Source: Naegleria gruberi | Taxonomy: Eukaryota | Assembly: GCA_000004985.1 (NCBI GenBank) | Contig: GG738870.1 | Strand: one strand, 5' to 3' | DNA length: 64,000 nucleotides | Shown: positions 2,442-61,572 of the stretch, in pieces | Numbering within the stretch: position 1 is the first letter of the stretch | Layout: each line of letters begins with the position of its first letter | The notes under the pieces: model-generated | The model's input: the letters and a program-made list of their open reading frames with translations, nothing else | Told to the model about the DNA's origin: nothing | The model's database searches: none | Position numbers and translations under genes: made by a program

Positions 2442-2495
2442 AGGAAAGTGTATTAAGAAAACCATACCATTGATGCATCAATTATCTCAATATGA

Positions 2496-2566
2496 AGGGA
2501 GATAGTTCAGTGGTAGAACATGGGATTGTGGTTCCTAAGATCAGGGTTCGATTCCCTGTCTTCCTA
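2496..2566 (+). tRNA. tRNA-His (anticodon GTG)
   Basis: A cloverleaf can be folded by eye: acceptor AGGGAGA/TCTTCCT, D arm GTTC-AGTGGTA-GAAC, anticodon stem TGGGA/TCCTA with loop TTGTGGT (GTG), and T arm CAGGG-TTCGATT-CCCTG. The discriminator is A and there is no encoded G-1. An oligo-T Pol III terminator follows at 2571..2575. Confidence 0.8.
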
Positions 2567-3461
2567 CACCTTTTTAACAGCGTAATTTTGAATATGGTTG
2601 GTAAATAAGATTTGCTTGAATACTTAGTTGCGTCTAGACTACATTAACCACAAATTGTTTTTATTGGTCCAAAATCAAGTTTGACTAATCTTTATAATAA
2701 ATTCACAGATACTGTAACTCATTCCTATCTTGATTCTTCAGAATTAGTAAATATAGGTTCTCTCTTATTGTACTTTATATTAATTAGATTGTAAAATGAG
2801 ATAAAACAATTTTGCCAATTTTCTTTCTTCATTGACTAGGATTACTCGTCTGTTACGTTATTAATAAAATTTAGACCAATAACGGTTCCAAACTAATTAA
2901 CTATCTGAATACATGTTCCTTTTATCTGCATAGACCTATAGCCAATGAATATATCAAACAACTAACAAACGAAGACCTTAACATCTCCATTCTAATCCAA
3001 CTCAAATTGTTGAATGCTTCAAAAAAGAACAACTTGAAAAGATAACAGTAACAAAACAACTACTTGATGTTTAACCTTTTCATTGTAAAGTCTTTCATCA
3101 AACAACAAATAGATGTGAAAGTTGATAATCAACAATCAATACCTCACTTTTTTTTAAAATTCTTTAGTGGTGATTTTTTAAAATATCCAAAAATGAACCC
3201 GATTAACCGCTTGTGGCCTCTATCAAATTTTTTAGGCGCCATCTCGAACAAATAAGTCACTGACAAAGGAGGTTGTGCCATCAAATTCGCCTTATAAAGC
3301 TCTTATTAAGTTTGTTAGAATTTGTTGAGGTAAAATTTGATTCTTTAGTTTGATCCAAGAAGCTTGTTGAAGTACGTCCCCGTTGTTGTAATTCACTATA
3401 AAACGCTACTGGTTAGCTTCTAAAAAAAAGCACACAACAACAACAAATATAAACCTTAACA

Positions 3462-4582: not shown

Positions 4583-6142
4583 TTAATGTACTAACTGTAT
4601 TTTAAATTTCACAATTCCATCATAATCAATATTGACCAGTTTGATTCTCAATTTCTTTTCTCCAATTCTATGATAGAAAATTCTATCCTCAAACAATTCT
4701 ACAGATGGACTAATTTCTCCAAATAATTGAAGAACTCTATTGGATGCATCCTTTCTTACTTGTATGTCAGCTTCAATGCTTTCAAACACCTGATCACATC
4801 CGGCAGCCAATACTTCTAAAGTAACATTTTTTAGATGAGGAATACCTTCGAATAGTTGTGTGAGAGTAAGCTCTTCTAATTCAGAGTCAAGAAGGTACAA
4901 AGTTTCAAGATTTGGAAACTTTTTGTTTGCCAATTCAACAAATCCTTGCTCAACATTTTCATCATTGTCCCGTTCTTCCTCTTCTTGATGTTCCTCGTCC
5001 TCAGCTTCATTCTTAATGTAGCCAAATCTTGCCCATGTTAATCCTTTAAGTTTAGGGAATAATTCTTTTAAAACTCCATCATCATCACAGCCACTAAACT
5101 CATCAAAATTGAAATCAAACTTTTTAAGTTTTGTCAACTTGTCAAGATCTAATAAGTGTTCACCATAAGGTAACCCGTCAAATAGGTTAAGAGACTCAAG
5201 GCTATGTAGTTGATTAGTAATAATTGGAAGATTATCTGATTCATTCAAATAACGCTCTCCAAAAGTGAGGTCACTAAGTTTTTTACAATGTTCTACAAGT
5301 CCTAAAAACACAGCATTTTCATATGCCATGCAATATCCCATTTTCAACTTTCTCAAATTTGGTGCATGCTTGAATAAACTCACTAGTGTAGTAGAACTAA
5401 ATGATTCATTTCCACTAACAACATCAAAATATTCCAAATTTTCTAGAATAGGGAAAGAATCTCCAATTTCATATTCGCCTAAATCAATTCTAAGTTTCTT
5501 TAATTTGGGCATGCCAGTAAAAATACAATCTAAAATCTTGTTTGGAAATAGACTACCAAAGATTAATATTTCCAATTCTTTCAATCTAGAGATCCATTCA
5601 GTAAAAACATCCAATTGTTCTTCATCCCTTAAAAAAACAATAAATGAATTTGCCAATCTCAATTCTTTCAACCCATCAAAAACACCAGAACTAATACATC
5701 TCTTGAAAAATTCACTTGTTAATTCGAAACTCAATGACTCATTATATTCATCAATAGAGCCCAAATGCAAAACTTTACATCCATTCTTTGGTGAAACATT
5801 GATAATGTAATCGAGCAATCTATTCAAATAATCCCTATCGAACTTTCTAATTTTGAGAAAGGAACTTGTAGGATACCCATCTTTCACTGCAATGCTAACT
5901 CTTTCATAAACTAAACTCTTTCCTTCACCACCTCCCAAAATATTGTAAAACATTTTACAAACTGGCATTACATTTGGCAGCAATTCCCTAGTTGCTTCAA
6001 GATATGTAAACACATGAGCCCAAACATCAGAAACAATCCTTCCAACAGGTTCATGATTAGATTTCAACATGATCAACGATTCCGACTTGTAAGTTTTGCT
6101 GATCTTGTTATTTTCTTCAATAGTTTCAAGTTGTCGTTTCAT
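4583..6142 (-). CDS. F-box-like/leucine-rich-repeat protein
   Basis: The 519-aa ORF has an N-terminal F-box-like stretch (DVWAHVFTYLEATRELLPNVMPVCKMFYNIL). Many LxxLxLxxN-type LRR units follow (LKELRLANSF, LKKLRIDLGEYEIGDSFPILENLEYFDV...). Confidence 0.5.
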   Translation of the reverse strand: MKRQLETIEENNKISKTYKSESLIMLKSNHEPVGRIVSDVWAHVFTYLEATRELLPNVMPVCKMFYNILGGGEGKSLVYERVSIAVKDGYPTSSFLKIRKFDRDYLNRLLDYIINVSPKNGCKVLHLGSIDEYNESLSFELTSEFFKRCISSGVFDGLKELRLANSFIVFLRDEEQLDVFTEWISRLKELEILIFGSLFPNKILDCIFTGMPKLKKLRIDLGEYEIGDSFPILENLEYFDVVSGNESFSSTTLVSLFKHAPNLRKLKMGYCMAYENAVFLGLVEHCKKLSDLTFGERYLNESDNLPIITNQLHSLESLNLFDGLPYGEHLLDLDKLTKLKKFDFNFDEFSGCDDDGVLKELFPKLKGLTWARFGYIKNEAEDEEHQEEEERDNDENVEQGFVELANKKFPNLETLYLLDSELEELTLTQLFEGIPHLKNVTLEVLAAGCDQVFESIEADIQVRKDASNRVLQLFGEISPSVELFEDRIFYHRIGEKKLRIKLVNIDYDGIVKFKIQLVH

Positions 6143-6171: not shown

Positions 6172-6183
6172 TTTGGCGCCAAA
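6172..6183. promoter_or_regulatory. palindromic E2F-like element TTTGGCGCCAAA in a divergent promoter
   Basis: An exact TTTGGCGCCAAA lies 29 bp upstream of the F-box/LRR ATG (6142, minus) and about 200 bp upstream of the plus-strand gene at 6385. The motif is two overlapping inverted TTTSGCGC E2F half-sites, as in the DHFR TTTCGCGCCAAA element. Confidence 0.45.
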
Positions 6184-6384: not shown

Positions 6385-7176
6385 ATGTCTCGTAGCTGCC
6401 ACACACGTCTCGCCCACAAACAAATGCTCAACGATTTGATCGACGATATAAAAAACGTTTTCGAAAGTGATTTAATTGTACAAGTTAGCGAAGCTCTTGG
6501 AGGTGCTCTATTTTTCTATCTCGATAAAAAGAATTCTAAATTTCACCTCTCACTATCCTATTCCTTCTCTGGTATGCAAAAATTTCATGTCTTTTCCTTC
6601 CAAGTAATTCACAAAAATGTACAGGATAGACAATTAGTAATTTCTATTCATTTACAAAAAGGAAAAAATATTTCAGAGCAGTCAACTCTGTTTATTGGAA
6701 GAGGAGAAAAGAATTCTAAAAAGATTTATCTAGTTAAGATTGAACCTTCTTTTAGTAGTTTGTCGTTGGCTAAATTGAATAAGAAACTTTTCACACCATT
6801 CGGAAGAAAGAGGAAATTGGATGCTTTTGATAATGTGAAAGCTAAATTCCTAATGATTAACATGAATCTTTTTCTTGTGGAGGAGGAAAATCATGCTATA
6901 CAGGAGGAATGCACATATATTATGAATAATCACTGGGGATACTGTGGTCTAAATGATTTATATTCATATTCAAGTCTACAATTCCAATATTGTGTTTTTA
7001 ATAGAGAAAATTACTATGTGAAAGGTAGTGTCACTAAATCTGTAGATGGTCATAAGAGATTTGGTTTTAACAAAATACCTTCCACAGCAAAATGTGATCG
7101 ATGGAGAAGATTGGTAAAGCCAGAGAATGATTCGGAAACTAGATGGACTAAATCTGTTGGATTTTATTGCGAATGA
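6385..7176 (+). CDS. hypothetical protein, weak THAP-like C-terminal motif
   Basis: The 263-aa ORF has a C-terminal HKRFGFNKIPSTAKCDRWRRLV that recalls THAP FHRFP...RW. The canonical N-terminal CxxC is missing, so the function call is speculative. Confidence 0.3.
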   Translation: MSRSCHTRLAHKQMLNDLIDDIKNVFESDLIVQVSEALGGALFFYLDKKNSKFHLSLSYSFSGMQKFHVFSFQVIHKNVQDRQLVISIHLQKGKNISEQSTLFIGRGEKNSKKIYLVKIEPSFSSLSLAKLNKKLFTPFGRKRKLDAFDNVKAKFLMINMNLFLVEEENHAIQEECTYIMNNHWGYCGLNDLYSYSSLQFQYCVFNRENYYVKGSVTKSVDGHKRFGFNKIPSTAKCDRWRRLVKPENDSETRWTKSVGFYCE

Positions 7177-7323
7177 ATTTTCATTTCAATTTCTCTTGAG
7201 AAATATGTGGCAGAAGTTACATAAAGATTGTCCTTATAATAAAAATCGAGTGGACAGAGAGAAGTGCCACACTTTGTGGTTAATGTAGTCTTGATCTTAT
7301 TTACCAAGCTGTCAAAAAAGGTG

Positions 7324-7394
7324 TAGGAAGACAGGGAATCGAACCCTGATCTTAGGAACCACAATCCCATGTTCTACCACTGAACTATCTCCCT
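7324..7394 (-). tRNA. tRNA-His (anticodon GTG), second identical copy in inverted orientation
   Basis: The reverse complement of 7324..7394 is base-for-base identical to the tRNA at 2496..2566. Immediate flanks are also similar (atgaaggg upstream, cacc plus T-run downstream). Confidence 0.8.
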
Positions 7395-7555
7395 TCATGT
7401 TATAGAGAATCCAAGCCAAGCATTGATGATAATAAAATAATGATTAAAAATAGATTCGAAAAAAATTATTCATACAAGACGAAGATCACATACAAAAAAT
7501 TACCGTCATCAAGATAATATTTAGGGCTGAATAATTATTAACTTAAATTTTAACA

Positions 7556-10500
7556 ATGCCCTATAACACTAGACATCATTCTACTCCACGTGGATCATAT
7601 TCCAAATTTTTTGATGATGCTGAAGAGGAAGAAGAAGAAGAAGAAGAAGCCCAAACTAGAAAGGTAGGTTTTATACAATTACTCTTTGACCATATATCAA
7701 ACATATCAATAGCCTCCGACAAGGAGAACAAGTACAAGGTCAAGTCATAGAAATTCATCAAGTGATAGTGAGGAAATAGATGATCTGACATCTAAACGAT
7801 CAACAAGACAAAATAAACCAAGACATAACAGAATAGAACAGGAAGAACCTGAGGATGAGTATTCCGAAAGTATTGCTTCTTCAAGACCAAAAAGAACACC
7901 AAAAAAAACAACATATACTGATTTTTATACGGAAGACTATGATGAAAATTCGGATAAGGAAACTCCAAAATCATCAAGGAAAAAAGCACCAGCAAGAAGA
8001 ACAACTGGCACTAAAGTACAAATTAAAAGGGAATTAATTGAAGCACATACTAGTGAAATCCCGAATCCAACAATTGTACAACAGCCATCCGAACAAGTTG
8101 AAACATCAGTAATAACTTCTGGTGTTATTGATGACGTATTTAAAGATATTATTCCAAATAATCAACCTATCACTACTGAACAAAACAGTATACCAACTAT
8201 GGAATTTCCAACTAGTACCGTACCACCAAGTAATATGGAATTTGATACATCACTCAACAGAAGCCAAAGTGCTATTTCAGAGCAAAGTGATGATCATAAA
8301 GGCAAAAAAAGAAAAAAGAATGAGGAGGATGAGGATTTCGTTATGGATGATGATGAACCAGAGGAGGAAGAAGCCATTGAAGTATCTGATGAAGCTTTAT
8401 CAGATGCTATTTCTTCCAATGATGAATTAGAAATGAGACCAACAAGAAGTAGAAAAAAGCCAAAATTTATTGTGGATGATGATGAGGAATTGGAAGAAAC
8501 AGAAACACCAAAAGAGAATGGAAAGGATATTAAAAAGAGATTAAGGCCAAGAACCCAAGCTCAACTTAATCCTTATAGCCACCCTATTCCAAATATTGAC
8601 AATATTGAAATTCCATCAAAGAGTACTATGATAAAGGAACAACAAGAACTCTTGGCACCTTTAGATTCCTTAACATTCCAATTTTCAGAGTCTGAATCAG
8701 AATCTGACAACGATGAAACAGGTTTGGTCAATCCAGCATTTGGTAAGAAAGGAGAATATGATCACATTAAGCCAATCAATATTGAACAACTTAAAAAGAA
8801 ACCATCTGCTGATATTGATCCAGTTTTTTCCAAACCTGTTGGATTTGACATGGTTGGTGGTCTTCATAAGCACATTAATGCATTGAAAGAAATGGTAGTA
8901 TTACCCCTTTTATATCCAGAAGTATTTAACAAATTTGATATTACTCCTCCAAGAGGTGTCATATTTTATGGTCCACCTGGTACGGTAAGTTTTGAAATCA
9001 GATATATTGTAATATTAACAACTAATTTTAGGGTAAAACACTTGTTGCTAGAGCTCTTGCTAGCACCTGTGGTACTGGAACAGATGGAAACAAACCTATT
9101 GCCTTCTTTATGCGTAAAGGTGCTGATATCCTCAGTAAATGGGTTGGTGAAGCTGAAAAACAATTAAGACTTTTGTTTGATGAAGCAAAGAGACTTCAAC
9201 CTTCCATTATTTTCTTTGATGAAATCGATGGTTTAGCACCAGTAAGATCATCAAAACAAGATTACATTCACAGCTCAATTGTATCAACTCTTCTTGCACT
9301 TATGGATGGTTTAGATAGTAGAGGTCAAGTCGTGGTAATCGGAGCCACTAATAGAATAGACTCTATTGATCCAGCTCTTAGAAGACCAGGAAGATTTGAC
9401 AGAGAGTTACTGTTTACTCTTCCTTCTAAAAAAGCAAGAAAAGAAATTTTACAAATTCATACTAAGAATTGGGTACCTCAAATACCAGACGATCTGAAAA
9501 ATTACATTTCTCTAAAATCTGTTGGATATTGTGGAGCTGACATTAAAGCACTCTGTGCTGAATCTGCTCTTAACGCTCTTAAAAGATCCTACCCACAAGT
9601 TTATACCAGTCAATCAAGATTAGTTCTTGAGCTTGATACAGTAGAAGTTACGAAGGTAGATTTCCTAAGAGCAATGAAATCAATAGTACCAGCATCACAT
9701 AGAAATGCCGTAATTCATGCATCTCCTCTTCCAACTCAACTTGCTCCTTGCCTAAGCCAAAAATTAGAAATGGTTTTGAGAATATGTACAGATGCCTTCC
9801 CATTATGTATCAAAACCCTAGAGGATAAAGTTGATAATGAAGACCTCGTAATAGAAACTGGTCCAATTTTGGATGATTTTGAAGGAGTAGATGAAAAAAC
9901 ATTTGAAAGCAATTCAAACGATTTCTTTATCAATCCTCCAACATTCAGACCTTGGGTCTTGATTCACGGACAAAAAGGAATGGGTCAAAATCTTATTGCA
10001 AGTGCAGTTTTGTATAGTTTAGAAGAGTTCCCATTGTTCTCCCTAAGATATGAAAACCTTATTTCGAATACCTCATCTAGGAGCGAAATTGAAGCAATTA
10101 TTAATATTATTGCCGACTCTAGAAAGAATTCACCATCTATCCTTTGGCTTCCTAATCTTGATGAGTGGTTTGAAAAGAGTACAGATTTAATGAAATCTAC
10201 TTTGATTTCACTCCTCAATGAGATACCCTCCTCTGTATATGTGTTCGTCCTTGCTACTTGTAACTACTCTTCTGAAGAATTACCACAAGAATTCACTGAA
10301 TTATTTGCTGATTATAGATTTGAAGTTAGCTCACCATCCAAAGACGAAAGAGTTGAAATGTTCAAACCTATTCTTGCTGATATTGTTAGATCTCCACTTA
10401 AGAAAACAAAGGTTAAGAAAGTTTATCCAACTTTACGTTTGGCTCCTCCAAAAGAACAAAAATCCTCAGAAATCGAGCCAAGCAAAGAAAAGAAATTGCA

Positions 10501-25675: not shown

Positions 25676-25748
25676 GGGGTCATGGCGCAGTCGGTAGCGC
25701 GTAGGTCTCATAATCCTAAGGTCGTGAGTTCGATCCTCACTGACCCCA
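25676..25748 (+). tRNA. elongator tRNA-Met (anticodon CAT)
   Basis: The fold has acceptor GGGGTCA/TGACCCC, D arm GCGC-AGTCGGTA-GCGC, anticodon loop CTCATAA (CAT) and T arm GTGAG-TTCGATC-CTCAC. The GCGCGT...GTCTCATAATC...AAGGTCGTGAGTTCGATCCTCAC core matches eukaryotic elongator tRNA-Met. A T5 terminator follows. Confidence 0.8.
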
Positions 25749-28680: not shown

Positions 28681-28751
28681 ACTTTGCCGCCAATTTCTCC
28701 CGCTTTTTGTTGGCGTTTTTCAGTACAACAATAAAAATCAATATCAAAAAA

Positions 28752-30815
28752 ATGCACTCAAGTTACTTCCTCAATCACAAGTCATCTAGGCCTAAGAATG
28801 ATGATACGGAAGAAGATGAAGACATTATTGTTGAATTATCAACAAAAAAAGACCAAAGAAAAGTTATCTTAACTGGGTCTAAGGAAGAAATAAATACATC
28901 TGAAGATGAAGTTGAAGAAGGATATTTATCGGATAGCTTAAAAGAGGTTGACTATCATAACTTGGAAGAACCATCTTTCATTGAAAATTCGGATGAAGAA
29001 GATATGGATCTCATAACGATACAATCACTAAGGGAATCTCATCAGCAAAAATTAGACCAAGTGGAACGAGAATACCTCTCTCTTAGAGAAAAGAACAATA
29101 TGTCAGTTGATGTGCATAAAACAAGAAATGTTCGGATTAAAAACCCAATGAATTCATACAGAACAGTCACATTTAGTGACCAATTTGATGAGGAGCCAAG
29201 AAACTCTCCTAAATCTGACACTGAAGAAAGGGATTTCTCTCAAGTAAACAGAAGAGTATCTGAGATCATCAGTGAGGTCAGTTTGGACGACGATAATACC
29301 AGTGTCAGTTCTGATGACACTGAGTTCAAACAAGATTACAAACACTATTTCAATGACCCAAGTTTACATAATCAATTGATTGATGAAGAGTCAGTAGAAC
29401 GAGACTATAACTATAATGATATTAGTGACACTTGTACAGTGATTTCGGATGTGTCAGAATTTGTAAAGGAAAGAGATGCCGAGGGACCAACAGAAAACAT
29501 CGAACGTAAAAACATCACTGTGCCTCTTCCATTCAAATTTGAGGACAGAGAGGCCAGAAAGCCTTTGGGCATTCATAGAAGGAAGATGGATGACTATATC
29601 AATAAGATTAAAATGGAAGAAGAACATCATCTCAACAAAAGATTCAAAGCAAATCCAGTTCCAAAATCAACAAAGACTCCTTTATATGAATCTGTAAGAA
29701 TAAGGACTGAATTACAGACAAAGCTGGAGAGAAAGGCTCTTGAGGAAATGACTAAAAAAATAATTAAGCCATTTTATTTTGCTGAGAGAGACGAAAGGAG
29801 GTCCAAACAATTAGAAGAAGAGAAAATACTAAAACAAGAGGAGCATTATATGAGATTTGAAAAAGGATTTGTGGCTAATCCAGGTTTGTTTCAAATTTTC
29901 CTATATTCTTACATCCAAAGTTCCCTCACATACTTTCAGACATATTTATACTATAAAACAAGAAAGAGAATCACAAAGGAGAAGTGAAAGAGTTCAAGAA
30001 AGATCCCAACGACTTCTTCGCCAATCCTCTCTCCCTCCTAGAATGGAAATGTGGAATAAGGTCGGAAAATCACAAGCTATATGTAAGTAATACTCCCTTT
30101 GAGATCCAATTTCTAAAATATGTAGCAAACCCATTAGAAAACGATTTAACATTACATCCAAAAATCAATCATAACGTTCCTGTAAGTATTAGGATAAATT
30201 TTATTCTAACAAGATCAGGACTTTGACCATCTTCACCGAAAATTCCAAGAAACTCTGTATCTTGCAAAGAGAACTCAAAAGCTAACAGTTCCACAACCAT
30301 TCAAGTTCAATAGTACGTTAACTGAAAAAGATATGAAGAGAATTGCAGATGAGGTAGGATTAGATGATGTGGTTCTTCACGATTCAAGGTCAGACTGGGA
30401 AAAACAAGATTTCAAGGCAAAAATTTCAAAACGACCATCATCTGCAACCCAAAGCAGGCCTCAAAAGGATACCTTTGCAACTAGAATGAGAAATGAACAA
30501 ATTAAAAAACAAATAGCTGAAAGAGAGGAAAGGAAAAAGGAATTGGAAACATTGAGAGGAAAGCAATTCAATCAACAACGAAAGATTTTCAACAGAGTGG
30601 CGCCAAATATTGACAAACAAGAAAACAAAGAGAATTTTTATGCCACTCTTTCGAATACTCAAAAAAGGAGAGAGAAAGATGCTCTCATTGATGCAAAACC
30701 CTATCTTTTCGAAACCTCTTTGAAGAAGGAAGCTAAGGAGAAAGTCTATGAGGATCTGAAGAAAACTCTTTCAGAAAATGGAACAGCCTATTTATTATCC
30801 TCTCTTAAATTGTAA
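28752..30815 (+). CDS. TPX2-like microtubule-associated protein, 3 exons (28752..29883, 29921..30082, 30214..30815)
   Basis: The ATG at 28752 has an aaaaaaATG context. TPX2-family motifs recur: KRFKANPVPKSTKTPLYESVRIR, GFVANP|VPSHTFRH (spanning a 37-nt GTTTGT..AG intron) and TVPQPFKFNSTLTEKDMKR. Compare human FKARPLN / PKFKALPLPHF / TVPVSPKF. The second intron is GTAAGT..acaAG, 131 nt. The protein is acidic and S-rich with a coiled-coil C-terminus. Total length is 1896 nt, or 632 codons. Confidence 0.5.
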
Positions 30816-30842
30816 CAAATTAAATTATTGTAAAATAAAAAA

Positions 30843-31223
30843 ATGAGCAAACAACAACCTGGTGACAATGAGGACAAGAACAAGACGGAGAGGAGAATGA
30901 AAAATTTATATAGATGGTTAAATCCAAAAGAAACAAATGAATTTTTAAATTCCGATTTTGAAACTCCAAAAACTATTGCAAATGCAGAAAAGGATGCAAA
31001 ACTTTTTCCTACTGAATTAGAAATTTTAGATAGAGCAAAATTAATTGAAAAAAATCAAGTTGATGATGAAGAATTATACTCCTTCAGTTCTCAATTTGGA
31101 CCAATTAGTAGATTAACAAAAGATCAAAAGAAGGATATTTTAAAATTAATTGAAAAGAATAGAATTGATATTCCAATAGAATACAAGACATATTTAACAG
31201 ATTTAATCGATGAAGATATTTAG
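30843..31223 (+). CDS. hypothetical small acidic protein (126 aa)
   Basis: It is a clean single ORF with an A-rich ATG context. No recognisable domain is present. Confidence 0.4.
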   Translation: MSKQQPGDNEDKNKTERRMKNLYRWLNPKETNEFLNSDFETPKTIANAEKDAKLFPTELEILDRAKLIEKNQVDDEELYSFSSQFGPISRLTKDQKKDILKLIEKNRIDIPIEYKTYLTDLIDEDI

Positions 31224-45628: not shown

Positions 45629-45841
45629 TTTTTTTTGAAGTTTACATTAATTGTCTTTCTATTATTGATTGTAATAGAATGTTGTATTATTAGATCAAGA
45701 AATAATTTTCTTTCATTTAATAAGAATTGGTTCTAAACATTCTACAATTTAATGTGTTTGAAAATTTCAGAGTTAAGAATATATTGATTTTTAAAACCAT
45801 TCAATTTTTTACCGCCAATTGTAGTTTTTCCCTCCAAAAAA

Positions 45842-48122: not shown

Positions 48123-48147
48123 ATAAAATAAGACTGTTAAGTTTTTG

Positions 48148-48159
48148 TTTGGCGCCAAA
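48148..48159. promoter_or_regulatory. palindromic E2F-like element TTTGGCGCCAAA, 22 bp upstream of the DNAJC11 ATG
   Basis: An exact 12-mer lies in the 59-bp spacer between the BBS7 stop (48122) and the ATG at 48182. Confidence 0.45.
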
Positions 48160-48181
48160 ATTTAAAATCTAATCAAAAAAA

Positions 48182-50347
48182 ATGAAAGAAAAGATTAAAG
48201 ACTTGTTCGGAAAAAAGGATGGTGTTGAAAATATTAAAGAACACATCCAGGATGGTATGTTTTGAAAGTAATAGTAGTAGTAGTTACTATTGTTTTATTG
48301 AAATGATATAAATTATGCGGAATATGATGAATGATTTATATCATTGAAAAAACCTCTCTCTAATCATTTAATAATAACATGAATAACATTATTTGGAATA
48401 TATTATTTGGATGTATTTAATCAATTTTATTTAGAAATTGAAGATAGTGATGATGAAGGTGTTGAAATTGAAGAAATTTATAAAAAGAAGAGAACCTATT
48501 ATGAAGTATTGGGTATTAAAAAGACAGCAACACAAAAAGAGATTACAGATGCGTTTAGAAAAAAGTCTAGAAAATGCCATCCAGATGTTCAAAGATTAAC
48601 TCCCGAACAAAAGAAGATTTTCAAACCAAAAGAATTGGAAGAATATTTTGAAGAAAAACAAAAACAACTTAATGAAGCCTATGAAGTACTTTCAAATGAA
48701 AGAAAAAGGGCACAATATGATGTACTAGGAAAATGTATTACTTCGCTTGTATTAGTTGATGATTCTGAAAATGTAAATTTTCAAGAATTAAAAGAAAGAT
48801 ATAAGAATTACAAAAGAGAACAACGTAAAATTCATCGTGATACAAAAACTCAAGGAAGTAGTTCTGCAACACTAGGTGTAGATTTAGCTGGAATGTTTTT
48901 AAGTGAAGAGGAATCTGAACAAATTGTTGAAGAGGATGGTAAAACATATCGTGTCATTATTCCAAAAGTTTCATTTACAAATTCTTCATTTTCACAATCA
49001 TTCCAAACACCAATTACAAAATTAGATACTGTTCTATTTCATGGAAATGCAAATTGTGATCAATTAGAATCAGAAAATGTTGCTCATACAATTGCTGTTC
49101 AATGGAGACATGTTATGGATCCAACAAAGGAATCAACTCAAATGGATCTTGCAACTATTTATTCAAGTCAAAATCCAACTGATTTATCAATTGTTGCTTC
49201 TGGAAGTACAAAATTATCAGAATTTAGTCAAGGTTCAATGCAATGGGTAGGTCAATTTAATGGTGTTAGTCCTACTGTTTTAAATTGGTTAACTGTTGCT
49301 GGGTTCCAAGTTGTTTATAAGAGACAATTATTTTCTGATAATACTTTAAGTGGATCAATACTTTTCAGTTTCCCTAGGGATAATAATGTTACATTTACGC
49401 TAGATAAGAGTTTTGTACATGATGGATCTTCAATTTCTTCAGAATTAAGAATTGGTGCTGCTAGTTCTCATATTTCATGTGAATTTAGAAGAAATTTACC
49501 TGAATGGTTACGAAATGCAATTGTTAGATCAAAATCTGAAGAAGAAGAGGATGATATTGAATTAGTATCGGATTTAACACTGTCGACAACAGATTTTGTT
49601 AGTGAATATGATCTTGGATTTAATATACTTTTAGTTAAACCAGTTGCAGAGGATACAGAAATAGGTTTTGGAGTTGGAGCTAGTATTCAAGATGGTGTTA
49701 ATATGAAATTTAATCTTAGACGATTCAGACATAATTTCAATGTACCAATTGCATTGACACATATTTTTGATTGGAAAATGTTATTATTTGCTACCATAAC
49801 ACCAATTGCTTGTTTCTCTCTTTTCAAATCATTTATTTTTGATCCAATTTCAAGTTATTGGAAGAAGAAGGATATTAAGAATCAACGTAAGACTGCCTTC
49901 CTTGCAACACAAGAAAAGAGACAAAAGGCACTTGCTGAATTGGAAAAGATTAGAGAACAAGCACTTCAATCAAGAAATGCAGAAGAAGAAGTTAATGGTT
50001 TAGTAATTATTAATGCTAAATATGGAGACTTGGAAGGTGATATCGATGAAGGTGAATATCCATCATGGATTGATCTTACTGATCAACTTCAATTCTTGGT
50101 TTCAAATTCTAAACTTTACTTGCCAGAATATAGCAAGTCAAGAATGGAAGGTTCTTTTGATCCTGCACCAGGTGTATCAAAAACTTTACTTGTTTGGTAT
50201 AGATTTAATGGTAAAACTCATAGAGTTGAAGTAGATGATGAGGAAGAATTGAGAATTCCAATTCTGGAAGATGTAATTGATAAGACTGAAGGTAAAGCTA
50301 CTGCTAGTGCATCCTCATCAGATGATGAATATGAAAGTGATGAATGA
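48182..50347 (+). CDS. DNAJC11: DnaJ homolog subfamily C member 11 (J-domain plus DUF3395), 2 exons (48182..48254, 48435..50347). An alternative start lies at 48407.
   Basis: The J domain is YYEVLGIKKTATQKEITDAFRKKSRKCHPD...AYEVLSNERKRAQYDVLGK. The C-terminus reads GLVIINAKYGDLEG...WIDLTDQLQFLVSNSKLYLPEYS. Compare DNAJC11 GLIIVNAWYGK...[21 protein letters not shown]. A possible 24-codon 5' mini-exon (MKEKIKDLFGKKDGVENIKEHIQD) joins by GTATGT..tttAG (180 nt, phase 1). Total length is 1986 nt, or 662 codons. Confidence 0.7.
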
Positions 50348-50415
50348 GAAGATTCATTTTAGTTGATTTGGTTAATAATTTATTTGAAGCAGCTATTTAA
50401 GAATGTGCTGATTCA

Positions 50416-52913
50416 TTATTCTCCACAATAAAATACTTTTTCACCATCAATAATACAGAAAGTTTGATCTTCCAAGTCTTTCAAAACCTTTTGTAATTGA
50501 GATTTTGGAAGTGAAGCATTCTCTCCTGCACATAATAAGGTTTCCATTTCTTCAATTGCAAATCCATTTTGTGCATTTTCGAAGATAGCCTTCTTGATGA
50601 TTTCAATAGCTTCCTCTTCATCAATTGGTTCATTCTCAAATTCTTCTCTACCTCTCTTATTAGTGGTAGCAGTAGTACTCTCATCAGATTGTTCAGTATT
50701 GGTGAGGGTGAGTGGTTTCTTCTTTTTCTTTTTACTCTCACCTTCCACAGATGAAAGTTGAGCAAGAATAGCATCACTATTGGTATTATTTAAAAACCAA
50801 ATAGAGTAATACATTAATTTGAAAGCAGATTCAACATCACTCTTAGTAATTTCTGTACCTAATCTCATTTTTGCATGTGCAGTTGATAATCTAATTAATG
50901 ATTCTAATGTTCTAGCTGTGATTGGAAGTGTTTTTTGACCATTATTTGTTCTCAATTCTAAATATTTGATATGCATAAATTCTCTAGCTTCTTCAGTTAA
51001 CCTTGGTGTTGTTTGTTTGGCATATTTAACATATTTCTTCAAGAATGAGAGAGGTATAATTAAGTGTTGATGTTTCTTGCTATAATCATCATTTTCATGA
51101 GATATCTTTTCAATTTCATTAAAGAATGAATTCATTTCATCAAGTTCAGTTAAATGTGTTTCAGTTGAAATACCAACTTTAGAGGTGTGATAATCTTGTG
51201 ATTGTTGTCTGTGAACATTTAAAACGTGACTACCAACTAATCTATCTTTCTCTCCATTTCTTTCATCTAAAAGAATGTAAATTAAATCAAAACGTGATAG
51301 TAATGAATCAGGTAAACCAATATTTCTTTGAATTGATACTTGTCTATTATATTGACCATAAATAGGATTAGCAGCAGCTAAAACTGAACATCTTGCATTC
51401 AATGAACAGTGAACACCTGCTTTTTGAATTGTAACAGTTTGTTGTTCCATAACTTCGTGCATTGCAGTTCTATCTTGATCTGACATTTTGTCAAATTCAT
51501 CAACACAAACAATACCACGATCTGCTAAAACCATTGCACCTGCTTGAAGGGATCTTTCACCTGTATCTCTATCAGCAACAACAGCAGCAGTTAAACCAAC
51601 ACCTGTTGATGCTCTACCTGTTGTTGAAATTGCCAATGGAACTGATTTTAAAACAAATCTTAACATTTGTGATTTGGCAGTTGATGGATCACCAACAAGT
51701 AAAATATTAATATCACCTCTAAGGTGAGTATTGGAAGTTGAAAAATTCTTTTCTACACCCCCTAGCATTTGTAAAAGTAAACTCTTCTTAATAAAATCAT
51801 GTCCAAATATAGTTGGTGCCATTCCCCTAGATAAAATATCAAAAAGATCACTTCTCTTTGATAATTTTGTAATGTTAACAATTTCATTTTCTGAAAATTC
51901 TTCTTGTTGTGTTTGAAGTTCTCTGGTTACAATATGATTTACAATGAAAACCATTCTCATTTTGCTTGATAACTTAGTTTGACTTTGACCTGATGGTGGT
52001 AATGCTTTATAAACACCATACATTGTAACACGATCACCTGGTTTAACTTTATCAACCAAATCATCTTCTACTATACATTCAACTGATCTTGGAAGTTGAC
52101 CTGCAGGTGCATTCTCAGGTGCTTCTTGAATAAATAATGTTTGTGTATCACAAAATTGTGATAATCCAAATTCAGTCTCCAATACATTACCATTAGCATC
52201 TTGAAAATTTAAATTTGAAGCACCAGCTCCTAAATTTGCATCACTTGTAAAGTCTGTTTCATGAAATTTGTTAGTATCTGGACAATAATAAATAACTCTC
52301 ATCACCTTTTCAATAACAGATGAGCCTTTTTTTGAAAGATTAGAACAAATTAATGTTAATGTGATGTTGATGTTTTGTTGATGAGCAAGTGATAGTTGAT
52401 AACATATTAAAGTGAAAGTTAATAGTGTTCGTGTGTGTTTGATAATTGTCATCATTATTAATTATTGTGATAAATAGAAGAAAACAAACATTTTGTTATA
52501 ATTCCAGATAAACAAAGTAATTGATTTGCATAATTTGCTAATAAATGTCTCGGAGAAACATGATTATTATCACCCAATTCACCATCAAAGCCTAAATGAA
52601 TTTCAGCATTAGGTGATTCTTCAAAAAACTTTGGAAAATTAATATTAATATATTCATGGAGTGCAATTTCAAAATCATATAAATAATTGAGAGGTTGTTG
52701 TTGTATTTGTTGTGAACTTCGATGATCAAAATTTCTAAAGTCATTCATGTTAATTATTAATCGATTAATACCGGAATCACTTGAAGTACCACCATAATTA
52801 CTACTACTACTACTAGCTATATTGTTTGACACAATTTCTGATAGTTTATCATGATACTTTCTATTGGAGAGCAGAAAGTTTTTAAATAAACTCTGATTGT
52901 GTTGTGATTGCAT
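50416..52913 (-). CDS. MCM3: DNA replication licensing factor MCM3, 2 exons (52913..52490, 52325..50416)
   Basis: Exon 1 (track ORF 52458..52913) ends ...EIHLGFDGELGDNNHVSPRHLLANYANQLLCLSGIITKC, matching human [45 protein letters not shown] donor and an aaaAG acceptor join to SSVIEKVMRVIYYCPD... Exon 2 holds the Walker A ILLVGDPSTAKSQ and VDEFDKMSDQDRTAMHEVMEQQTVTIQKAGVHCSLNARCSVLAAANP, near-identical to the MCM3 arginine-finger region. The first 40 aa of the track's 679-aa ORF are intronic read-through. Total length is 2334 nt, or 778 codons. Confidence 0.8.
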
Positions 52914-52959
52914 TTTTTTTTAAAGTTTTATGTGTTTGGTTTAACGGTTAGTTTAATAT

Positions 52960-52971
52960 TTTCGCGCCAAA
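52960..52971. promoter_or_regulatory. palindromic E2F element TTTCGCGCCAAA in the MCM3 / DRC7-like bidirectional promoter
   Basis: It is identical to the classical DHFR-type E2F palindrome. It sits 46 bp upstream of the MCM3 ATG (52913, minus) and 28 bp upstream of the plus-strand ATG at 52999. Confidence 0.5.
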
Positions 52972-52998
52972 TTTTAATTAATATTCAACTACAAAAAA

Positions 52999-55978
52999 AT
53001 GGCTCCATCAAGTCTTGATCTTGGTATTGAATGGCATGCTATGGATAGAGCCCAACGTTTGGCTCAAATATACGAGTTGTATGAAAAGGCTCAAAAAGAA
53101 AAATTAAATACATTGGAATCAAAATTGGCAAATTCATCGGAACCATTAGAATATAGAGTTAGTGAGGATAAACCAATTGAATTGGATAGAGTCATTTCTT
53201 TCGTTCCCGATTCTTACAGATCAAATGAAAATAGAGAGGATGTTATTTTGGAATTTGTTGAAAATTTTAATTTACAATATTCTCAATTATTTAAGGATAG
53301 AAAGCCTTTAATTTTATATCCTGAAAATGAAGTTGGCATTCATGTAGGTATTTTATTCTAAAGATAGTGAATATAATATTATTTATTGGAACAATTGTTT
53401 TTATTTCTAATATTAAGAAATTTATTTGTACATACATTAAACCAACTCTATTGCCATATCCTGATTTATATGATGCTAAAGGAATAGCTCAGTTTATTCA
53501 CCATCATACAACTTTTGAATCATTGGATAGACCATTTGAAATTGTAAGTTTGGATTGGTTTGTGTGAAATAATTCTAATAACTTTAGCCTGAAGTTGTTT
53601 GTAGTCCAACTACAACTCTATATTGGCAAAAAGGAAATAGTTTTGATTTATCAACTTTATTAGTTTCTTTATTAATTGGAGCAGGATTTAATGCTTATTG
53701 TGTATCTGGATATGCTAAAAAGAGTATAGTTCTAAACGATCAAACTCAAAGTAATTCACCAATTGAAATTGAACCTGAAGAAGAGGAAATTACAGAAGAA
53801 CAAAGAGTTTTCAAGCCAAGTAAATACAAATTAAAGACAAGACCAAATTTAACAAGTCATTTTAGAAGGGAAGATTATCCACTCAAGGAAGATATTGATA
53901 TAATTGAAAGTAAAGTTAGTGAAGTATTAGGTGAAGATATTGAATCAGAGCAAGAAAAGATTCAACAAAATATTGGGAAAATTCTCAATTATGTTCATTG
54001 TTGGGTTGCAGTTCTACCTGGTAGAAGAGATGTTAAAGCACCATTCTTTATTGAACCAAGTTCAGGACAAGTATTTGAATTGAATGAAATTGATGAAGCT
54101 GGTTATTATGGAATTGAAAGTTTGTGGAATCATGAAAACTATTGGTGTAATATTTCATTTGAAAAGAAGATTTCTGAAATTGTTTTTGATTTGAAGAATT
54201 TACGTCATTGGGAATATGTTTTCATTCAACATTCAAAAGAGAGTGAAATTGAAGATGAAGATGAAAATGCTCAAGAAGAGAAGAGAATTGAATTTTTAAC
54301 TGTAGATGAAGGTGAATATGATGATGATGTATTGGATGTTCCTTCTTCATGGGTTGGAAGAATTTCAATTGCTAAAAGAAAATATGAAGATAGATATCCG
54401 CTCAATTACAAACTTGTTGAATATGCGAATACTACTATTGAATATTTCTCTCCTTATTTTAGAAGTGATTTAGTTACAAAGATTATTACTTGTTTTCATG
54501 ATGAAATGAAGGAAAAGACAAAAGAAATTCATTATTATTATAGTAATAGAAAGTAAGTTTCAATTATTATCATTATTAATGATTCACAATTTCATATTAT
54601 TATATATGACAATTAATACCAATTCAACTATAGAGATTTATTAAGAAGAAGATCAGTCTATTACATTTATTCATCAGCAGATTCTGATGTACCAATTAGA
54701 GAGAGAATTCATGAATGGTTTGATCCTGGAAGAAAGACAACTTCTAATTTTGAAGCCTTGAAAGAATTTGTATTTGAGAAGGGAGTTAGAAGAGAATATA
54801 AATTTTATAGTGAAGCAAGATTGGATGGATTAGAAAAGAGAACTGAATTATTTGAATCTAAAAATTTAATTCAACCTAAAAAAGTAATTGAATATTTCCA
54901 TAATAGAATTGATTTCGGAGATTATTTATGTTATAGATCTGTTACTTATGATATTGATAAATCAAGTGCAGGATTATTAAGTCAAGATCATCCAGAAGAT
55001 GATAAATATGGACCAATTATTGGAGATTTAGGATCAACACAAAATAATAATTCAAATGGATTGAGTGGATCAATGATTGATTTTTCAAATACAACTGATA
55101 AAAGTTTTACAGATGGAGCCTTAACAAGAAGAAAACAATTGAATGATAATATCATTATTAAAATGACAGAAAAATTCCTTAGAGATGAAAGTAGAAATGC
55201 TAATGAAGATGTTGCCAAGAGAACATTCTATATTGTTGATAAAAAGATTAGATTAGAATATCATTATGGTGAAGGTAAAATAACAAGATCAGTGAGAGAA
55301 TATACAAAAGATGGTCAATTTTATACAGAAATTATTGATCCATTCATGCCAAGACCTAAACTTGTTGATACAGTTGAAGAATATCATGCACTCTTACAAA
55401 CTGAAGTTAAATGTAAAGAAGATATTATTAAGAGTACTGCTGAAATGGCAAATATACTTCAAACAAGATATTCAGAAGAGAAGAATATTCAATTTACCAC
55501 AACTATTTATGATGTTGAAAGAAATAGACCAACTGAAGAAGAATTGAGATTATTAAGAGAAAAGGAAAGAGAATTAGAAGAACAACGTAAGAATAAGGAC
55601 CTAGTTGATCATTTAATACCTAAAGATGGTGTTAAAAGTGTTCAACAAGCTGAAGAAATTTATTATACAGTTATGAAAGATCTTAAAGATCAACTCATGA
55701 TGAGAATTAATATTATTGAAGAAAGATTACAAAAAGAAAAACAAAAATTGGCAAGAAGAAGAACCATGTATCAAAAAAGTCAAGAAGGAGTTGATAGAAA
55801 TAGTGAAGAATATGTTCAATTCTGTCAAGATACTTTATTCAAAATTAAAATTCTCAAACAAAGAGCAGAAGATCACAATGCAAGAGCTGCAAAGAAATTT
55901 GCAGAATTGAAAGAAAAATTATTGAATCACAAACAATTAGGAGGATTCTTAAAACATTTGAAAAATAAGAAGAATTAA
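52999..55978 (+). CDS. large coiled-coil protein with transglutaminase-like cysteine-protease core; possible nexin-dynein regulatory complex subunit 7 (DRC7/CCDC135)-like; 4 exons (52999..53343, 53418..53543, 53588..54552, 54634..55978)
   Basis: The four track ORFs join phase-consistently via GTAGGT/taAG, GTAAGT/ttAG and GTAAGT/atAG. The transglutaminase-like core is PTTTLYWQKGNSFDLSTLLVSLLIGAGFNAYCVSGYAKK. The C-terminal half is extensive coiled coil. Total length is 2781 nt, or 927 codons. The DRC7 assignment rests on architecture only. Confidence 0.4.
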
Positions 55979-59681: not shown

Positions 59682-60381
59682 CTTATTGTTATTTTTATGA
59701 TTGTCGTCGTAATATTGTAGTAAATTTACAGTCACCGTTAGAGCGGTAAGGTTTTATATAAATACACTCTCTGAGGGTGTTGTGTTGTTGAGGTATTTTT
59801 TTTAAGATTGGTTTTTAAAACGTAACTGTAGATTTTTTATTCTCTCCCTCAGAGTTCGTTAATAACTGAAAAACTTTACAAGACGTAACGGCAAGTGTCG
59901 ATAAATTTCATCATTTCTCTCTCTCGTACATTTTCAATCAGCAGCAATTAATAATATTTGATGATTGCTGCTACAATCAGTTGATGATTTTAAATATAAT
60001 ATAATATTAAGGAGGATTGATGCTTAATAATAATAATCATGATTCTTAAAGGAACAATATTAATTGAATATATATTAATCAAATAGTGTAACGGTAACAC
60101 GTAAATTTCAAATGTTGATTTGGCGCTAAATTTCAAATCCATCAATGGTCATCAAATTTACTTCTAATTTGAATTTCTAAATATTAAATCAATTATTCAA
60201 AATATAAATATGAAGGAAATCCTTCAAAATATTTAAAGGGAGTTAAATATTTTACACTCTCTTGAACAAAATAACATTCAATTAAAATAATAATATTTAA
60301 AATTAAATTCATTTTAATATTTTACAATTTACTATATTACACAATCAATAATCATTTAAAATAATCATTTAAAATAATAAT

Positions 60382-60592
60382 NNNNNNNNNNNNNNNNNNN
60401 NNNNNNNNNNNNNNNNNNNNNNNNNNNNNNNNNNNNNNNNNNNNNNNNNNNNNNNNNNNNNNNNNNNNNNNNNNNNNNNNNNNNNNNNNNNNNNNNNNNN
60501 NNNNNNNNNNNNNNNNNNNNNNNNNNNNNNNNNNNNNNNNNNNNNNNNNNNNNNNNNNNNNNNNNNNNNNNNNNNNNNNNNNNNNNNNNNNN
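60382..60592. other. assembly gap (211 N)
   Basis: A run of n interrupts the 3' part of the Ras-like CDS. A 16-bp direct repeat (aatcatttaaaataat x2) abuts the left gap edge at 60346..60381. Confidence 0.95.
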
Positions 60593-61209: not shown

Positions 61210-61572
61210 TTTTTTAATTGTTGTTTTAATTGATGATGGAACATGTCGCAAAGATCTTGTTAAATGTCATCGAGACAGGATATGAACTTGTGAAGTTTGT
61301 TCAAATACTTAGAATGAACACAAGCACCTCAACTATTTGAACATATTATTACATGTAGAGAAATTGGTTCCATGTTCATTAGTTTTTTGCAAGTCAATAA
61401 ACTGTTGAATATTTGGAAGAGTATTAATAAGGTATGTAATGAAGAGATGTATTGTAGCAGGAATTTTCACATTATTGTAAATGAATTGGTCTCTTAATTC
61501 CTTTATTGAGTACGGAATAATAAGAACTGAAGAAGGCTCCACACTCACTATAACAACATGACCGTATAACTA

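What the first reader, a model, noticed from the sequence alone, without database searches (positions are those of the whole stretch)
6172..6183. Recurrent palindromic TTT(G/C)GCGCCAAA element 20–45 bp upstream of start codons in tiny intergenic spacers
Exact or near-exact copies occur at four sites. 6172..6183 (TTTGGCGCCAAA) lies between the divergent F-box/LRR and 6385 genes. 48148..48159 (TTTGGCGCCAAA) lies in the 59-bp gap between the BBS7 stop and the DNAJC11 ATG. 52960..52971 (TTTCGCGCCAAA) lies between MCM3 and the DRC7-like gene. 60119..60130 (TTTGGCGCTAAA) is an orphan next to the assembly gap. Weaker variants sit at 3231..3242 (TTTAGGCGCCAT, upstream of the CBS gene) and 28683..28696 (TTTGCCGCCAATTT, about 55 bp upstream of the TPX2-like ATG). 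Against a roughly 70% AT background, an 8-bp GC core recurring as a 12-bp palindrome is very unlikely by chance. The motif equals two overlapping E2F half-sites (TTTSGCGC) and is identical to the classical DHFR E2F palindrome. MCM3, TPX2 and ATAD2 are canonical E2F targets in animals. However, the motif's fixed proximity to ATGs, including in front of DNAJC11 and a ciliary-type gene, could instead indicate a lineage-specific core-promoter or TSS element.
Basis: partly seen in the sequence, partly recalled or inferred. Interest (0 to 1): 0.62.

Follow-up and report, generated by a model that had tools for sequence, protein, structure and literature searches.

The report
E2F binding sites in Naegleria promoters
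The recurring palindrome TTTGGCGCCAAA in this Naegleria gruberi window is most likely an ordinary E2F cell-cycle transcription-factor binding site, kept in front of the replication gene MCM3 and two neighbouring genes in related amoebae; this is an expected kind of element, not described so far for this lineage in the papers I could search.

Summary
TTTSGCGCSAAA occurs exactly at 6172, 48148 and 52960, and with one mismatch at 60119; shuffles give 0.00 and 0.12 expected matches. The window is Naegleria gruberi (its MCM3 is 100% identical).

The motif equals the E2F consensus TTTSSCGC, the DHFR site and the SELEX E2F palindrome. Published N. gruberi protein sets list E2F, DP, an E2F7/8-like protein and RB. 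The E2F DNA-binding domain aligns with the human E2F4 domain in 1CF7 (E = 7e-25), with RRIYD and most of its surroundings identical.

An E2F-consensus site lies 35-43 bp before the MCM3 ATG in four other heterolobosean sequences. The G/C positions vary and the orientation flips, as E2F degeneracy allows. It is also kept before DNAJC11 and before the ciliary gene DRC7 in a Naegleria species where MCM3 has moved away. The chance per promoter is about 0.1-1.6%.

Only about 5 of 31 promoters in the window carry it, so it is gene-specific and not a general core-promoter element.

- The 'TPX2-like' gene is FAM161.
- ATAD2 has no site.
- 60119 and 3231 are not near a start codon.

Binding and cell-cycle expression were not tested. 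Verdict: new member of a known kind, modest interest.

The parts
6172..6183 (.). Perfect palindromic E2F site TTTGGCGCCAAA. It lies 29 bp upstream of the F-box/LRR-like gene ATG (6142, minus strand) and 201 bp upstream of the ATG of the unknown gene at 6385.
   Evidence: identical to the HT-SELEX E2F motif
48148..48159 (.). Perfect palindromic E2F site TTTGGCGCCAAA in the 59-bp spacer between the BBS7 stop (48122) and the DNAJC11 ATG (48182).
   Evidence: The orthologous spacer in L005 keeps CCCGCCAAA 23 bp before the DNAJC11 ATG.
52960..52971 (.). E2F palindrome TTTCGCGCCAAA in the 85-bp divergent spacer between MCM3 (ATG 52913, minus strand) and DRC7 (ATG 52999, plus strand).
   Evidence: identical to the DHFR E2F site. 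An E2F-consensus site is conserved upstream of MCM3 in L001, L002, L003 and L004, and upstream of DRC7 in L002 and L005.
60119..60130 (.). One-mismatch copy TTTGGCGCTAAA (one intact half-site, TTTGGCGC). It lies about 438 bp upstream of the CFAP96 ATG and downstream of a Ras-like GTPase gene that runs into the assembly gap. Its target is unknown.
   Evidence: no Rfam RNA nearby
28683..28690 (+). Single half-site TTTGCCGC starting 69 bp upstream of the FAM161A/B gene ATG (28752). TTCTCCCGC and TTGGCG lie just downstream of it. Weak candidate.
52940..52950 (-). Second conserved box of the MCM3 promoter, TAACCGTTAAA (Myb-type core TAACGG on the plus strand), between the E2F site and the MCM3 ATG.
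   Evidence: CCGTTAAA is kept in N. gruberi, N. lovaniensis, L003 and L004. It is not a general element (CGTTAAA 5 observed against 4.5 expected).
50416..52913 (-). MCM3 gene, a canonical E2F target class. 100% identical to N. gruberi MCM3.
52999..55978 (+). DRC7 (dynein regulatory complex subunit 7) gene, which shares the E2F-bearing spacer with MCM3.
48182..50347 (+). DNAJC11 gene, immediately downstream of the 48148 site.
4583..6142 (-). F-box/LRR-like orphan gene, the nearest gene to the 6172 site.
   Evidence: no homologue other than itself

Best explanation
The palindromes are binding sites for the Naegleria E2F family. The likely binders are the single typical E2F paired with DP, and possibly the E2F7/8-like 'DEL' protein. 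The sites sit in very short promoters close to the transcription start.

Each palindrome is two overlapping, oppositely oriented half-sites (TTTSGCGC). It can therefore be read from either side, which suits the 85-bp divergent MCM3/DRC7 promoter.

By analogy with animals, plants and green algae, E2F/DP bound here would be held repressed by the RB pocket protein outside S-phase entry and would activate transcription at G1/S. This would give replication genes such as MCM3 cell-cycle-dependent expression. The same sites at DNAJC11, DRC7 and the F-box/LRR gene would put those genes under the same proliferation-linked control.

Shown here: the sequence identity to E2F sites, the enrichment, the promoter location, the conservation in orthologous promoters, and the presence and conservation of the factors' DNA-binding domains.

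Inferred: actual binding, RB dependence and cell-cycle timing.
For: 1. The motif is real and non-random.

2. It equals the in vitro E2F consensus TTTSSCGC. The 52960 copy equals the DHFR site ATTTCGCGCCAAA. The 6172 and 48148 copies equal the SELEX E2F palindrome TTTGGCGCCAAA.

3. The window is N. gruberi. Supplementary files of Medina et al. 2016 (PMC4862756) list NgruE2F, NgruDP, NgruDEL and NgruRB. NgruE2F hits Pfam E2F_TDP and E2F_CC-MB, and NgruDP hits E2F_TDP and DP, all above the curated cut-offs. The NgruE2F DNA-binding domain aligns with human E2F4 in the DNA complex 1CF7 at E = 7e-25, with [23 protein letters not shown] identical.

4. Footprint upstream of MCM3: N. gruberi TTTGGCGCGAAA, N. 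lovaniensis GCGCGCCAAAA, L003 ACCGCCAAAAA, L004 TTTCCCGCC, Willaertia magna TTACCGCCAAAAA. In the four other sequences the site starts 35-43 bp before the ATG (in N. gruberi, 46 bp separate the motif from the ATG). Only the S positions and the orientation vary.

5. In L005 MCM3 is no longer between DNAJC11 and DRC7. Even so, CCCGCCAAA lies 23 bp before the DNAJC11 ATG and GGCGCCAAAA 55 bp before the DRC7 ATG.

6. The chance of a consensus hit in each of these promoters is 0.07-1.6% by shuffling. It was found in 6 of 7. It was not found in the control BBS7 promoter.

7. Only about 5 of 31 promoters in the window carry it. Outside the MCM3 and DRC7 promoters it occurs at 1 of 8 in L001 and 0 of 10 in L002. 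This fits a gene-specific factor site.
Against: - There are no binding, TSS or expression data.
- Only one canonical replication gene (MCM3) is in the window, so enrichment by gene class could not be tested.
- ATAD2, an E2F target in animals, has no site.
- Three of the site-bearing genes (DNAJC11, DRC7, the orphan F-box/LRR gene) are not classical E2F targets.
- The DNAJC11 site is absent in Willaertia.
- The Acrasis kona DRC7 locus has no E2F consensus anywhere in 16 kb.
- The 60119 copy has no assignable gene.
- N. lovaniensis and L003 are close relatives (MCM3 90% identical), so they are not fully independent.
Confidence: 0.8

Rival explanations
1. A lineage-specific core-promoter or TSS-positioning element, used generally by Naegleria RNA polymerase II promoters and recognised by a basal factor rather than by E2F.
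For: Three copies lie 22-46 bp from an ATG in very short spacers. In orthologous promoters the site stays 23-55 bp before the ATG. From memory, the E2F palindrome of mammalian DHFR also sits at the TSS, so a role in start-site choice is not excluded even for a true E2F site.
Against: Only about 5 of 31 promoters in the window have it. The widespread upstream features are different: the A-run before the ATG, TTAATTAA and ACACAACA. Orientation flips between orthologues (L004 against the others) and the distance varies. 60119 is about 438 bp from any ATG. The degeneracy seen across species is exactly that of E2F sites.
Confidence: 0.06
2. A site for a different sequence-specific factor that happens to share the GGCGCC/CGCCAAA core, for example another winged-helix, CXC or Myb-type protein of Naegleria. 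E2F would not be involved.
For: No binding data exist. The most conserved part across species is the half-site SCGCCAAA(A) rather than the full palindrome. A Myb-like TAACGG box accompanies several copies.
Against: The full 12-mers are identical to the best-characterised E2F sites. The E2F recognition helix is identical to human E2F4. The canonical target MCM3 keeps the site in four lineages.
Confidence: 0.08
3. Chance G/C-rich palindromes, or remnants of a repeated or mobile element, with no function.
For: None beyond the small sample. One copy (30600, GCGCCAAA) lies inside the FAM161 coding sequence and may be chance.
Against: Shuffles expect 0.00-0.12 matches. The flanks of the copies share nothing beyond the motif. 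The sites are conserved in orthologous promoters whose other sequence has diverged.
Confidence: 0.02

Closest known systems
E2F/DP binding sites of G1/S genes in animals and plants (consensus TTTSSCGC; DHFR palindrome TTTCGCGCCAAA)
   Same: The sequence is identical. The position is promoter-proximal. The site is present at an MCM gene. It has overlapping inverted half-sites. E2F, DP and RB are present in the organism.
   Different: The host is a heterolobosean (Discoba) with promoters only tens of bp long. Two conserved site-bearing genes (DNAJC11, DRC7) are not classical targets. No binding or cell-cycle data exist.
Atypical E2F7/8 (plant DEL) sites, TTCCCGCC(AAAA)
   Same: Several orthologous sites read CCCGCCAAA or TTTCCCGCC, which resembles the E2F7 motif. 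N. gruberi has a two-domain DEL-type protein.
   Different: The sequence alone cannot tell whether typical E2F/DP or DEL binds. The N. gruberi copies are GGCGCC-centred palindromes rather than TTCCCGCC.
CDE/CHR and plant MSA (Myb) modules of DREAM-type cell-cycle promoters
   Same: In the MCM3 promoter, an E2F-like site is followed within 4-9 bp by a second conserved box whose core is TAACGG, a Myb/MSA-type core known to me from memory.
   Different: No TTYGAA CHR lies at the defining 4-nt spacing. The second box is not enriched in the window and is absent in Willaertia. MCM3 is a G1/S gene, not a G2/M gene.

Membership tests
E2F-family binding site (E2F/DP-RB pathway cis-element) | DNA sequence fits the consensus TTTSSCGC, optimally the palindrome TTTSGCGCSAAA | tested here: met
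   consensus and reference sites
E2F-family binding site (E2F/DP-RB pathway cis-element) | The organism encodes E2F and DP with intact winged-helix DNA-binding domains (RRxYD recognition motif) | tested here: met
   NgruE2F and NgruDP sequences come from the PMC4862756 supplement. Pfam finds E2F_TDP, E2F_CC-MB and DP above the cut-offs. Alignment to 1CF7 E2F4 gives E = 7e-25 with an identical RRIYD helix.
E2F-family binding site (E2F/DP-RB pathway cis-element) | A pocket protein (RB) is present to confer cell-cycle-dependent repression | not tested
   NgruRB is listed in supplement file 6 of PMC4862756. I did not analyse that sequence myself.
E2F-family binding site (E2F/DP-RB pathway cis-element) | Located in the proximal promoter of DNA-replication or cell-cycle genes | tested here: inconclusive
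   Met for MCM3. ATAD2 has no site. The other site-bearing genes (DNAJC11, DRC7, F-box/LRR) are not classical targets. The window has only one replication gene.
E2F-family binding site (E2F/DP-RB pathway cis-element) | The site is kept in orthologous promoters, with variation confined to the degenerate positions | tested here: met
   MCM3 in four further sequences, and DNAJC11 and DRC7 in L005: 6 of 7 promoters, with a chance of 0.07-1.6% each.
E2F-family binding site (E2F/DP-RB pathway cis-element) | Physical occupancy by E2F/DP and cell-cycle-dependent transcription that depends on the site | not testable with these tools
   Needs EMSA, DAP-seq or ChIP, and expression data from synchronised cultures.
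General core-promoter element (TATA- or Inr-like, lineage-specific) | Present in a large fraction of promoters | tested here: not met
   About 5 of 31 promoters in the window. Outside the MCM3 and DRC7 promoters, 1 of 8 in L001 and 0 of 10 in L002.
General core-promoter element (TATA- or Inr-like, lineage-specific) | Fixed distance and orientation relative to the transcription start | tested here: inconclusive
   No TSS data. Relative to the ATG, site starts range from -23 to -69, with one copy at about -438, and orientation flips in L004.
CDE/CHR tandem element (DREAM/MuvB) | CHR (TTYGAA) placed 4 nt downstream of the E2F-like CDE | tested here: not met
   The aligned flanks of 16 oriented sites show no conserved CHR at fixed spacing.

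The most novel reading that the evidence does not exclude
In Naegleria, which lacks RFX, FOXJ1 and XAP5 (review PMC12183034), E2F-family sites may also feed into the amoeba-to-flagellate programme. A canonical E2F site is kept upstream of the axonemal gene DRC7 even where MCM3 is no longer its neighbour (L005). E2F-like half-sites also lie upstream of the centriole gene FAM161. If E2F/RB or the DEL-type repressor holds such genes off in cycling amoebae and releases them on cell-cycle exit, this would parallel E2F4/5-multicilin control of centriole and cilia genes in animal multiciliated cells. It would also give a first candidate regulator of cilia genes in this lineage.
Probability: 0.12. Interest if true: 0.7.

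Novelty: new member of a known kind. Interest (0 to 1): 0.35.

Why it matters
The result extends the E2F-MCM regulatory link, at the level of the DNA site itself, to Heterolobosea (Discoba). This fits the published inference that the E2F/DP/RB module dates back to the last eukaryotic common ancestor. It also gives Naegleria workers a concrete, testable promoter element in an organism where, as far as my searches show, no promoter elements have been described.

The conserved sites at DRC7 and DNAJC11 hint that the Naegleria E2F regulon reaches beyond replication genes. That question could be settled with the published differentiation transcriptomes and a genome-wide motif scan.

Tried and rejected
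1. The look-up of encoding contigs for N. gruberi proteins (F-box/LRR ORF and MCM3 P0001) found nothing on record. No additional N. gruberi DNA could be fetched, so a genome-wide or gene-class enrichment test was impossible.

2. The homologue search with the F-box/LRR protein returned only the protein itself. Conservation of the 6172 site could not be tested, and the gene looks like an orphan. PDB and Pfam gave only weak LRR hits. The gene at 6385 has no Pfam or PDB hit.

3. Two metagenome scans for DRC7 exon 1, one with the single sequence and one with a three-species alignment, found no relatives.

4. The idea that BBS7 and FAM161 share a cilia-specific CCGCCAATT box was rejected for BBS7. 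The orthologous L005 promoter reads GCTGCCAAC there and keeps only TTTTCCCTCCAAAAAAATG.

5. The idea that CGTTAAA or TAACGG is a general promoter element was not supported. CGTTAAA gives 5 observed against 4.5 expected. TAACGG gives 10 against 5.2, with 4 of 100 shuffles reaching that number. TWACCGTY has 4 hits, all intergenic and 3 of them next to E2F sites, but I derived that pattern from those same sites.

6. A CDE/CHR reading was rejected because there is no CHR at fixed spacing.

7. No Rfam RNA explains the orphan site at 60119.

8. The Acrasis kona DRC7 locus has no E2F consensus, so the DRC7 site is not conserved at that evolutionary distance.

9. Literature searches for a described Naegleria E2F or promoter motif found none.

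Full report
**1. Observation**

The pattern TTTSGCGCSAAA matches exactly at 6172, 48148 and 52960. With one mismatch allowed it also matches at 60119. Dinucleotide-preserving shuffles of the window give 0.00 and 0.12 expected matches, and the sequences were read directly.

The 8-mer consensus TTTSSCGC gives 9 strand hits at 6 loci against 0.63 expected. Using my gene map, 15.4% of the window is intergenic. Five of the six loci are intergenic (binomial 4.6e-4).

An unbiased k-mer scan finds TTTGGCG and GCGCCAAA five times out of seven in the 4.4% of the window that lies within 120 bp upstream of start codons (p about 3e-6). The window (about 30% G+C) has only eight runs of six or more G/C. Seven of them are GGCGCC, GCCGCC or CGCGCC.

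**2. Organism and gene context**

The MCM3 reading frame is 100% identical to Naegleria gruberi MCM3. Pfam scans of the open reading frames give the gene map. Near the sites:
- F-box/LRR-like gene, 4583-6142, minus strand.
- Unknown gene, 6385-7176, plus strand.
- BBS7, 45843-48122, plus strand.
- DNAJC11, 48182-50347, plus strand.
- MCM3, 50416-52913, minus strand.
- DRC7, 52999-55978, plus strand.
- CFAP96, 58731-59681, minus strand.

Distances from motif to ATG are 29 bp (F-box/LRR), 22 bp (DNAJC11), 46 bp (MCM3) and 27 bp (DRC7). The 60119 copy lies about 438 bp upstream of the CFAP96 ATG. It is also downstream of a Ras-like GTPase gene that runs into the assembly gap at 60382-60592. The weak variant at 3231 does not fit the consensus and is 230 bp from the CBS gene ATG.

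**3. What the motif is**

The in vitro E2F consensus is TTTSSCGC (PMC3069401). The published DHFR site is ATTTCGCGCCAAA, identical to the 52960 copy. TTTGGCGCCAAA is listed as an E2F-family HT-SELEX motif, identical to the 6172 and 48148 copies.

The supplementary sequence files of Medina et al. 2016 (PMC4862756) contain N. gruberi E2F, DP, a two-domain DEL (E2F7/8-type) protein and RB. I checked two of them:
- NgruE2F carries Pfam E2F_TDP and E2F_CC-MB, above the curated cut-offs.
- NgruDP carries E2F_TDP and DP, above the curated cut-offs.
- The NgruE2F DNA-binding domain aligns with the human E2F4 chain of the E2F4-DP2-DNA complex 1CF7 at E = 7e-25. The stretch [23 protein letters not shown] is identical.

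The trans-acting machinery is therefore present, and its DNA specificity should be the same.

**4. Conservation in related species**

I fetched orthologous loci:
- N. lovaniensis (L001).
- Willaertia magna (L002).
- A Naegleria species from an ENA assembly (L003 and L005). Its MCM3 is 90% identical to that of N. lovaniensis.
- A further Naegleria-like lineage from a JGI metagenome (L004). Its MCM3 is 73% identical to that of N. lovaniensis.

Upstream of MCM3 the sites read:

| Source | Site |
|---|---|
| N. gruberi | TTTGGCGCGAAA |
| N. lovaniensis | GCGCGCCAAAA |
| L003 | ACCGCCAAAAA |
| L004 | TTTCCCGCC |
| W. magna | TTACCGCCAAAAA, plus TTTTGGGCGCG nearer DRC7 |

In the four other sequences the site starts 35-43 bp before the ATG. 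Every one fits TTTSSCGS. Only the S positions and the orientation differ, which is the tolerance pattern of E2F sites. The rest of the promoters aligns poorly.

In W. magna, MCM3 and DRC7 are divergent neighbours, as in the window. In the N. lovaniensis clade MCM3 has moved elsewhere. L005 shows BBS7, DNAJC11 and DRC7 in a row. There the BBS7-DNAJC11 spacer keeps CCCGCCAAA 23 bp before the DNAJC11 ATG. The DNAJC11-DRC7 spacer keeps GGCGCCAAAA 55 bp before the DRC7 ATG.

By shuffling, each of these promoters has a 0.07-1.6% chance of containing a consensus hit. Six of seven do. The control BBS7 promoter does not.

Exceptions are the W. magna DNAJC11 promoter, which has no site, and the Acrasis kona DRC7 locus, which has no consensus in 16 kb.

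**5. Not a general promoter element**

About 5 of 31 promoters in the window carry a consensus site: F-box/LRR, FAM161, DNAJC11, MCM3 and DRC7. In the other loci, apart from the MCM3 and DRC7 promoters, it occurs at 1 of 8 promoters in L001 and 0 of 10 in L002.

The extra L001 site (TTTCGCGC at 15712) is itself conserved in L003 at 6531. It lies upstream of a conserved gene of unknown function.

The features common to most promoters are different: an A-run directly before the ATG, TTAATTAA and ACACAACA. The flanks of the E2F-like sites share nothing beyond a partial second half-site, so the sites are not part of a repeat family.

**6. Mechanism**

The best-supported model is that E2F/DP, and possibly the DEL-type protein, binds these promoter-proximal sites. 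By analogy with the pathway in animals, plants and Chlamydomonas (my own knowledge), RB would repress the bound E2F outside G1/S.

The palindrome provides one half-site facing each way. That fits the 85-bp divergent MCM3/DRC7 promoter.

Shown here:
- Sequence identity to E2F sites.
- Enrichment and promoter location.
- Conservation in orthologous promoters.
- Presence and conservation of the factors.

Inferred:
- Actual occupancy of the sites.
- Dependence on RB.
- Cell-cycle timing.

The sequence cannot tell whether typical E2F/DP or the atypical DEL protein is the binder. E2F7 prefers TTCCCGCC, and several orthologous sites have that form.

**7. Open points**

- Gene-class enrichment could not be tested.
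- The 6172 site could not be footprinted. Its nearest gene has no detectable homologue.
- The 60119 copy has no assignable target, and no Rfam RNA lies nearby.
- DNAJC11 and DRC7 are unexpected but conserved site-bearing genes.

Naegleria lacks RFX, FOXJ1 and XAP5, and its cilia-gene regulators are unknown. The DRC7 and FAM161 sites therefore allow a speculative link between E2F and the flagellate programme. With four ciliary genes in the window, one of which shares its promoter with MCM3, the evidence for this is weak.

**8. Novelty and score**

Searches for Naegleria with E2F, and for Naegleria promoter motifs, found no description of these sites. Presence of the E2F, DP and RB genes in Naegleria was already published. 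E2F sites at MCM genes are textbook in animals and plants.

This is therefore a new member of a known kind. It is a well-supported, conserved E2F cis-element in a heterolobosean, of modest interest (0.35). A low-probability extension to cilia-gene control would be more interesting.

Noticed in passing
window 52940-52950; L001 about 9975-9985; L003 about 387-397; L004 about 141-149: A second conserved box, (A)ACCGTTAAA (core TAACGG, Myb/MSA-like), lies 4-9 bp downstream of the E2F site in the MCM3 promoters of four Naegleria lineages. It is not present in Willaertia.
   Followed up: partly
window 6200, 7500, 52943, 60090; and 59735, 59886, 60089: TWACCGTY has only 4 hits in 64 kb. All are intergenic, and 3 lie within 30 bp of an E2F-like site (the fourth is upstream of ATAD2). 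I derived the pattern from those same sites. Three TAACGG copies cluster upstream of CFAP96. TAACGG overall gives 10 observed against 5.2 expected.
   Followed up: partly
window 48182-55978 compared with L002 7059-14343 and with L005 and L003: Gene order DNAJC11 / MCM3 (opposite strand) / DRC7 is shared by N. gruberi and Willaertia magna. In the N. lovaniensis clade MCM3 has been excised to another locus (next to RGS and NADAR genes), leaving DNAJC11 and DRC7 adjacent. Both MCM3 and DRC7 kept an E2F-type site.
   Followed up: partly
window 45806-45818 and 28683-28696: The promoters of the ciliary genes BBS7 and FAM161 share CCGCCAATT (an ATTGGCGG E2F-like half-site, or a CCAAT box). In the L005 BBS7 promoter this part is not conserved; only TTTTCCCTCCAAAAAAATG is.
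   Followed up: yes
window 28752-31223, 45843-48122, 52999-55978, 58731-59681: Four cilium or centriole genes (FAM161A/B, BBS7, DRC7, CFAP96) lie within 31 kb.
   Followed up: partly
window 2489-2575 and 7315-7401: Two tRNA-His(GTG) genes form an 87-nt, 99% complementary inverted repeat. They bracket the CBS gene, the F-box/LRR gene and the unknown gene at 6385. A tRNA-Met lies at 25676-25748.
   Followed up: partly
window 4583-6142: The 519-aa F-box/LRR-like protein next to the perfect palindrome has no detectable homologue other than itself in the 5.8-billion-protein search. It appears to be a species-specific orphan.
   Followed up: yes
L001 15712-15719 and L003 6531-6538: TTTCGCGC is conserved between N. 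lovaniensis and the L003 species, in the spacer between a NADAR gene and a conserved 301-359-aa protein with no Pfam family. This is a possible further E2F target of unknown function.
   Followed up: partly
window 48123-48181: Only 59 bp separate the BBS7 stop codon from the DNAJC11 ATG, and the E2F site sits in the middle. The BBS7 3' end and the DNAJC11 promoter must therefore overlap.
   Followed up: no
window, upstream regions generally: Features enriched within 120 bp upstream of ATGs are an A-run directly before the ATG, TTAATTAA (7 of 14 copies) and ACACAACA (6 of 12 copies). These are candidates for general promoter or 5'-UTR signals.
   Followed up: no
window 60382-61210: A 211-N assembly gap (60382-60592) truncates a Ras-like small GTPase gene on the minus strand (ATG about 61210, intron about 60860-60990).
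   Followed up: no
window 30600-30607: One GCGCCAAA half-site lies inside the FAM161 coding region. It is the only genic consensus hit in the window and is probably chance.
   Followed up: no
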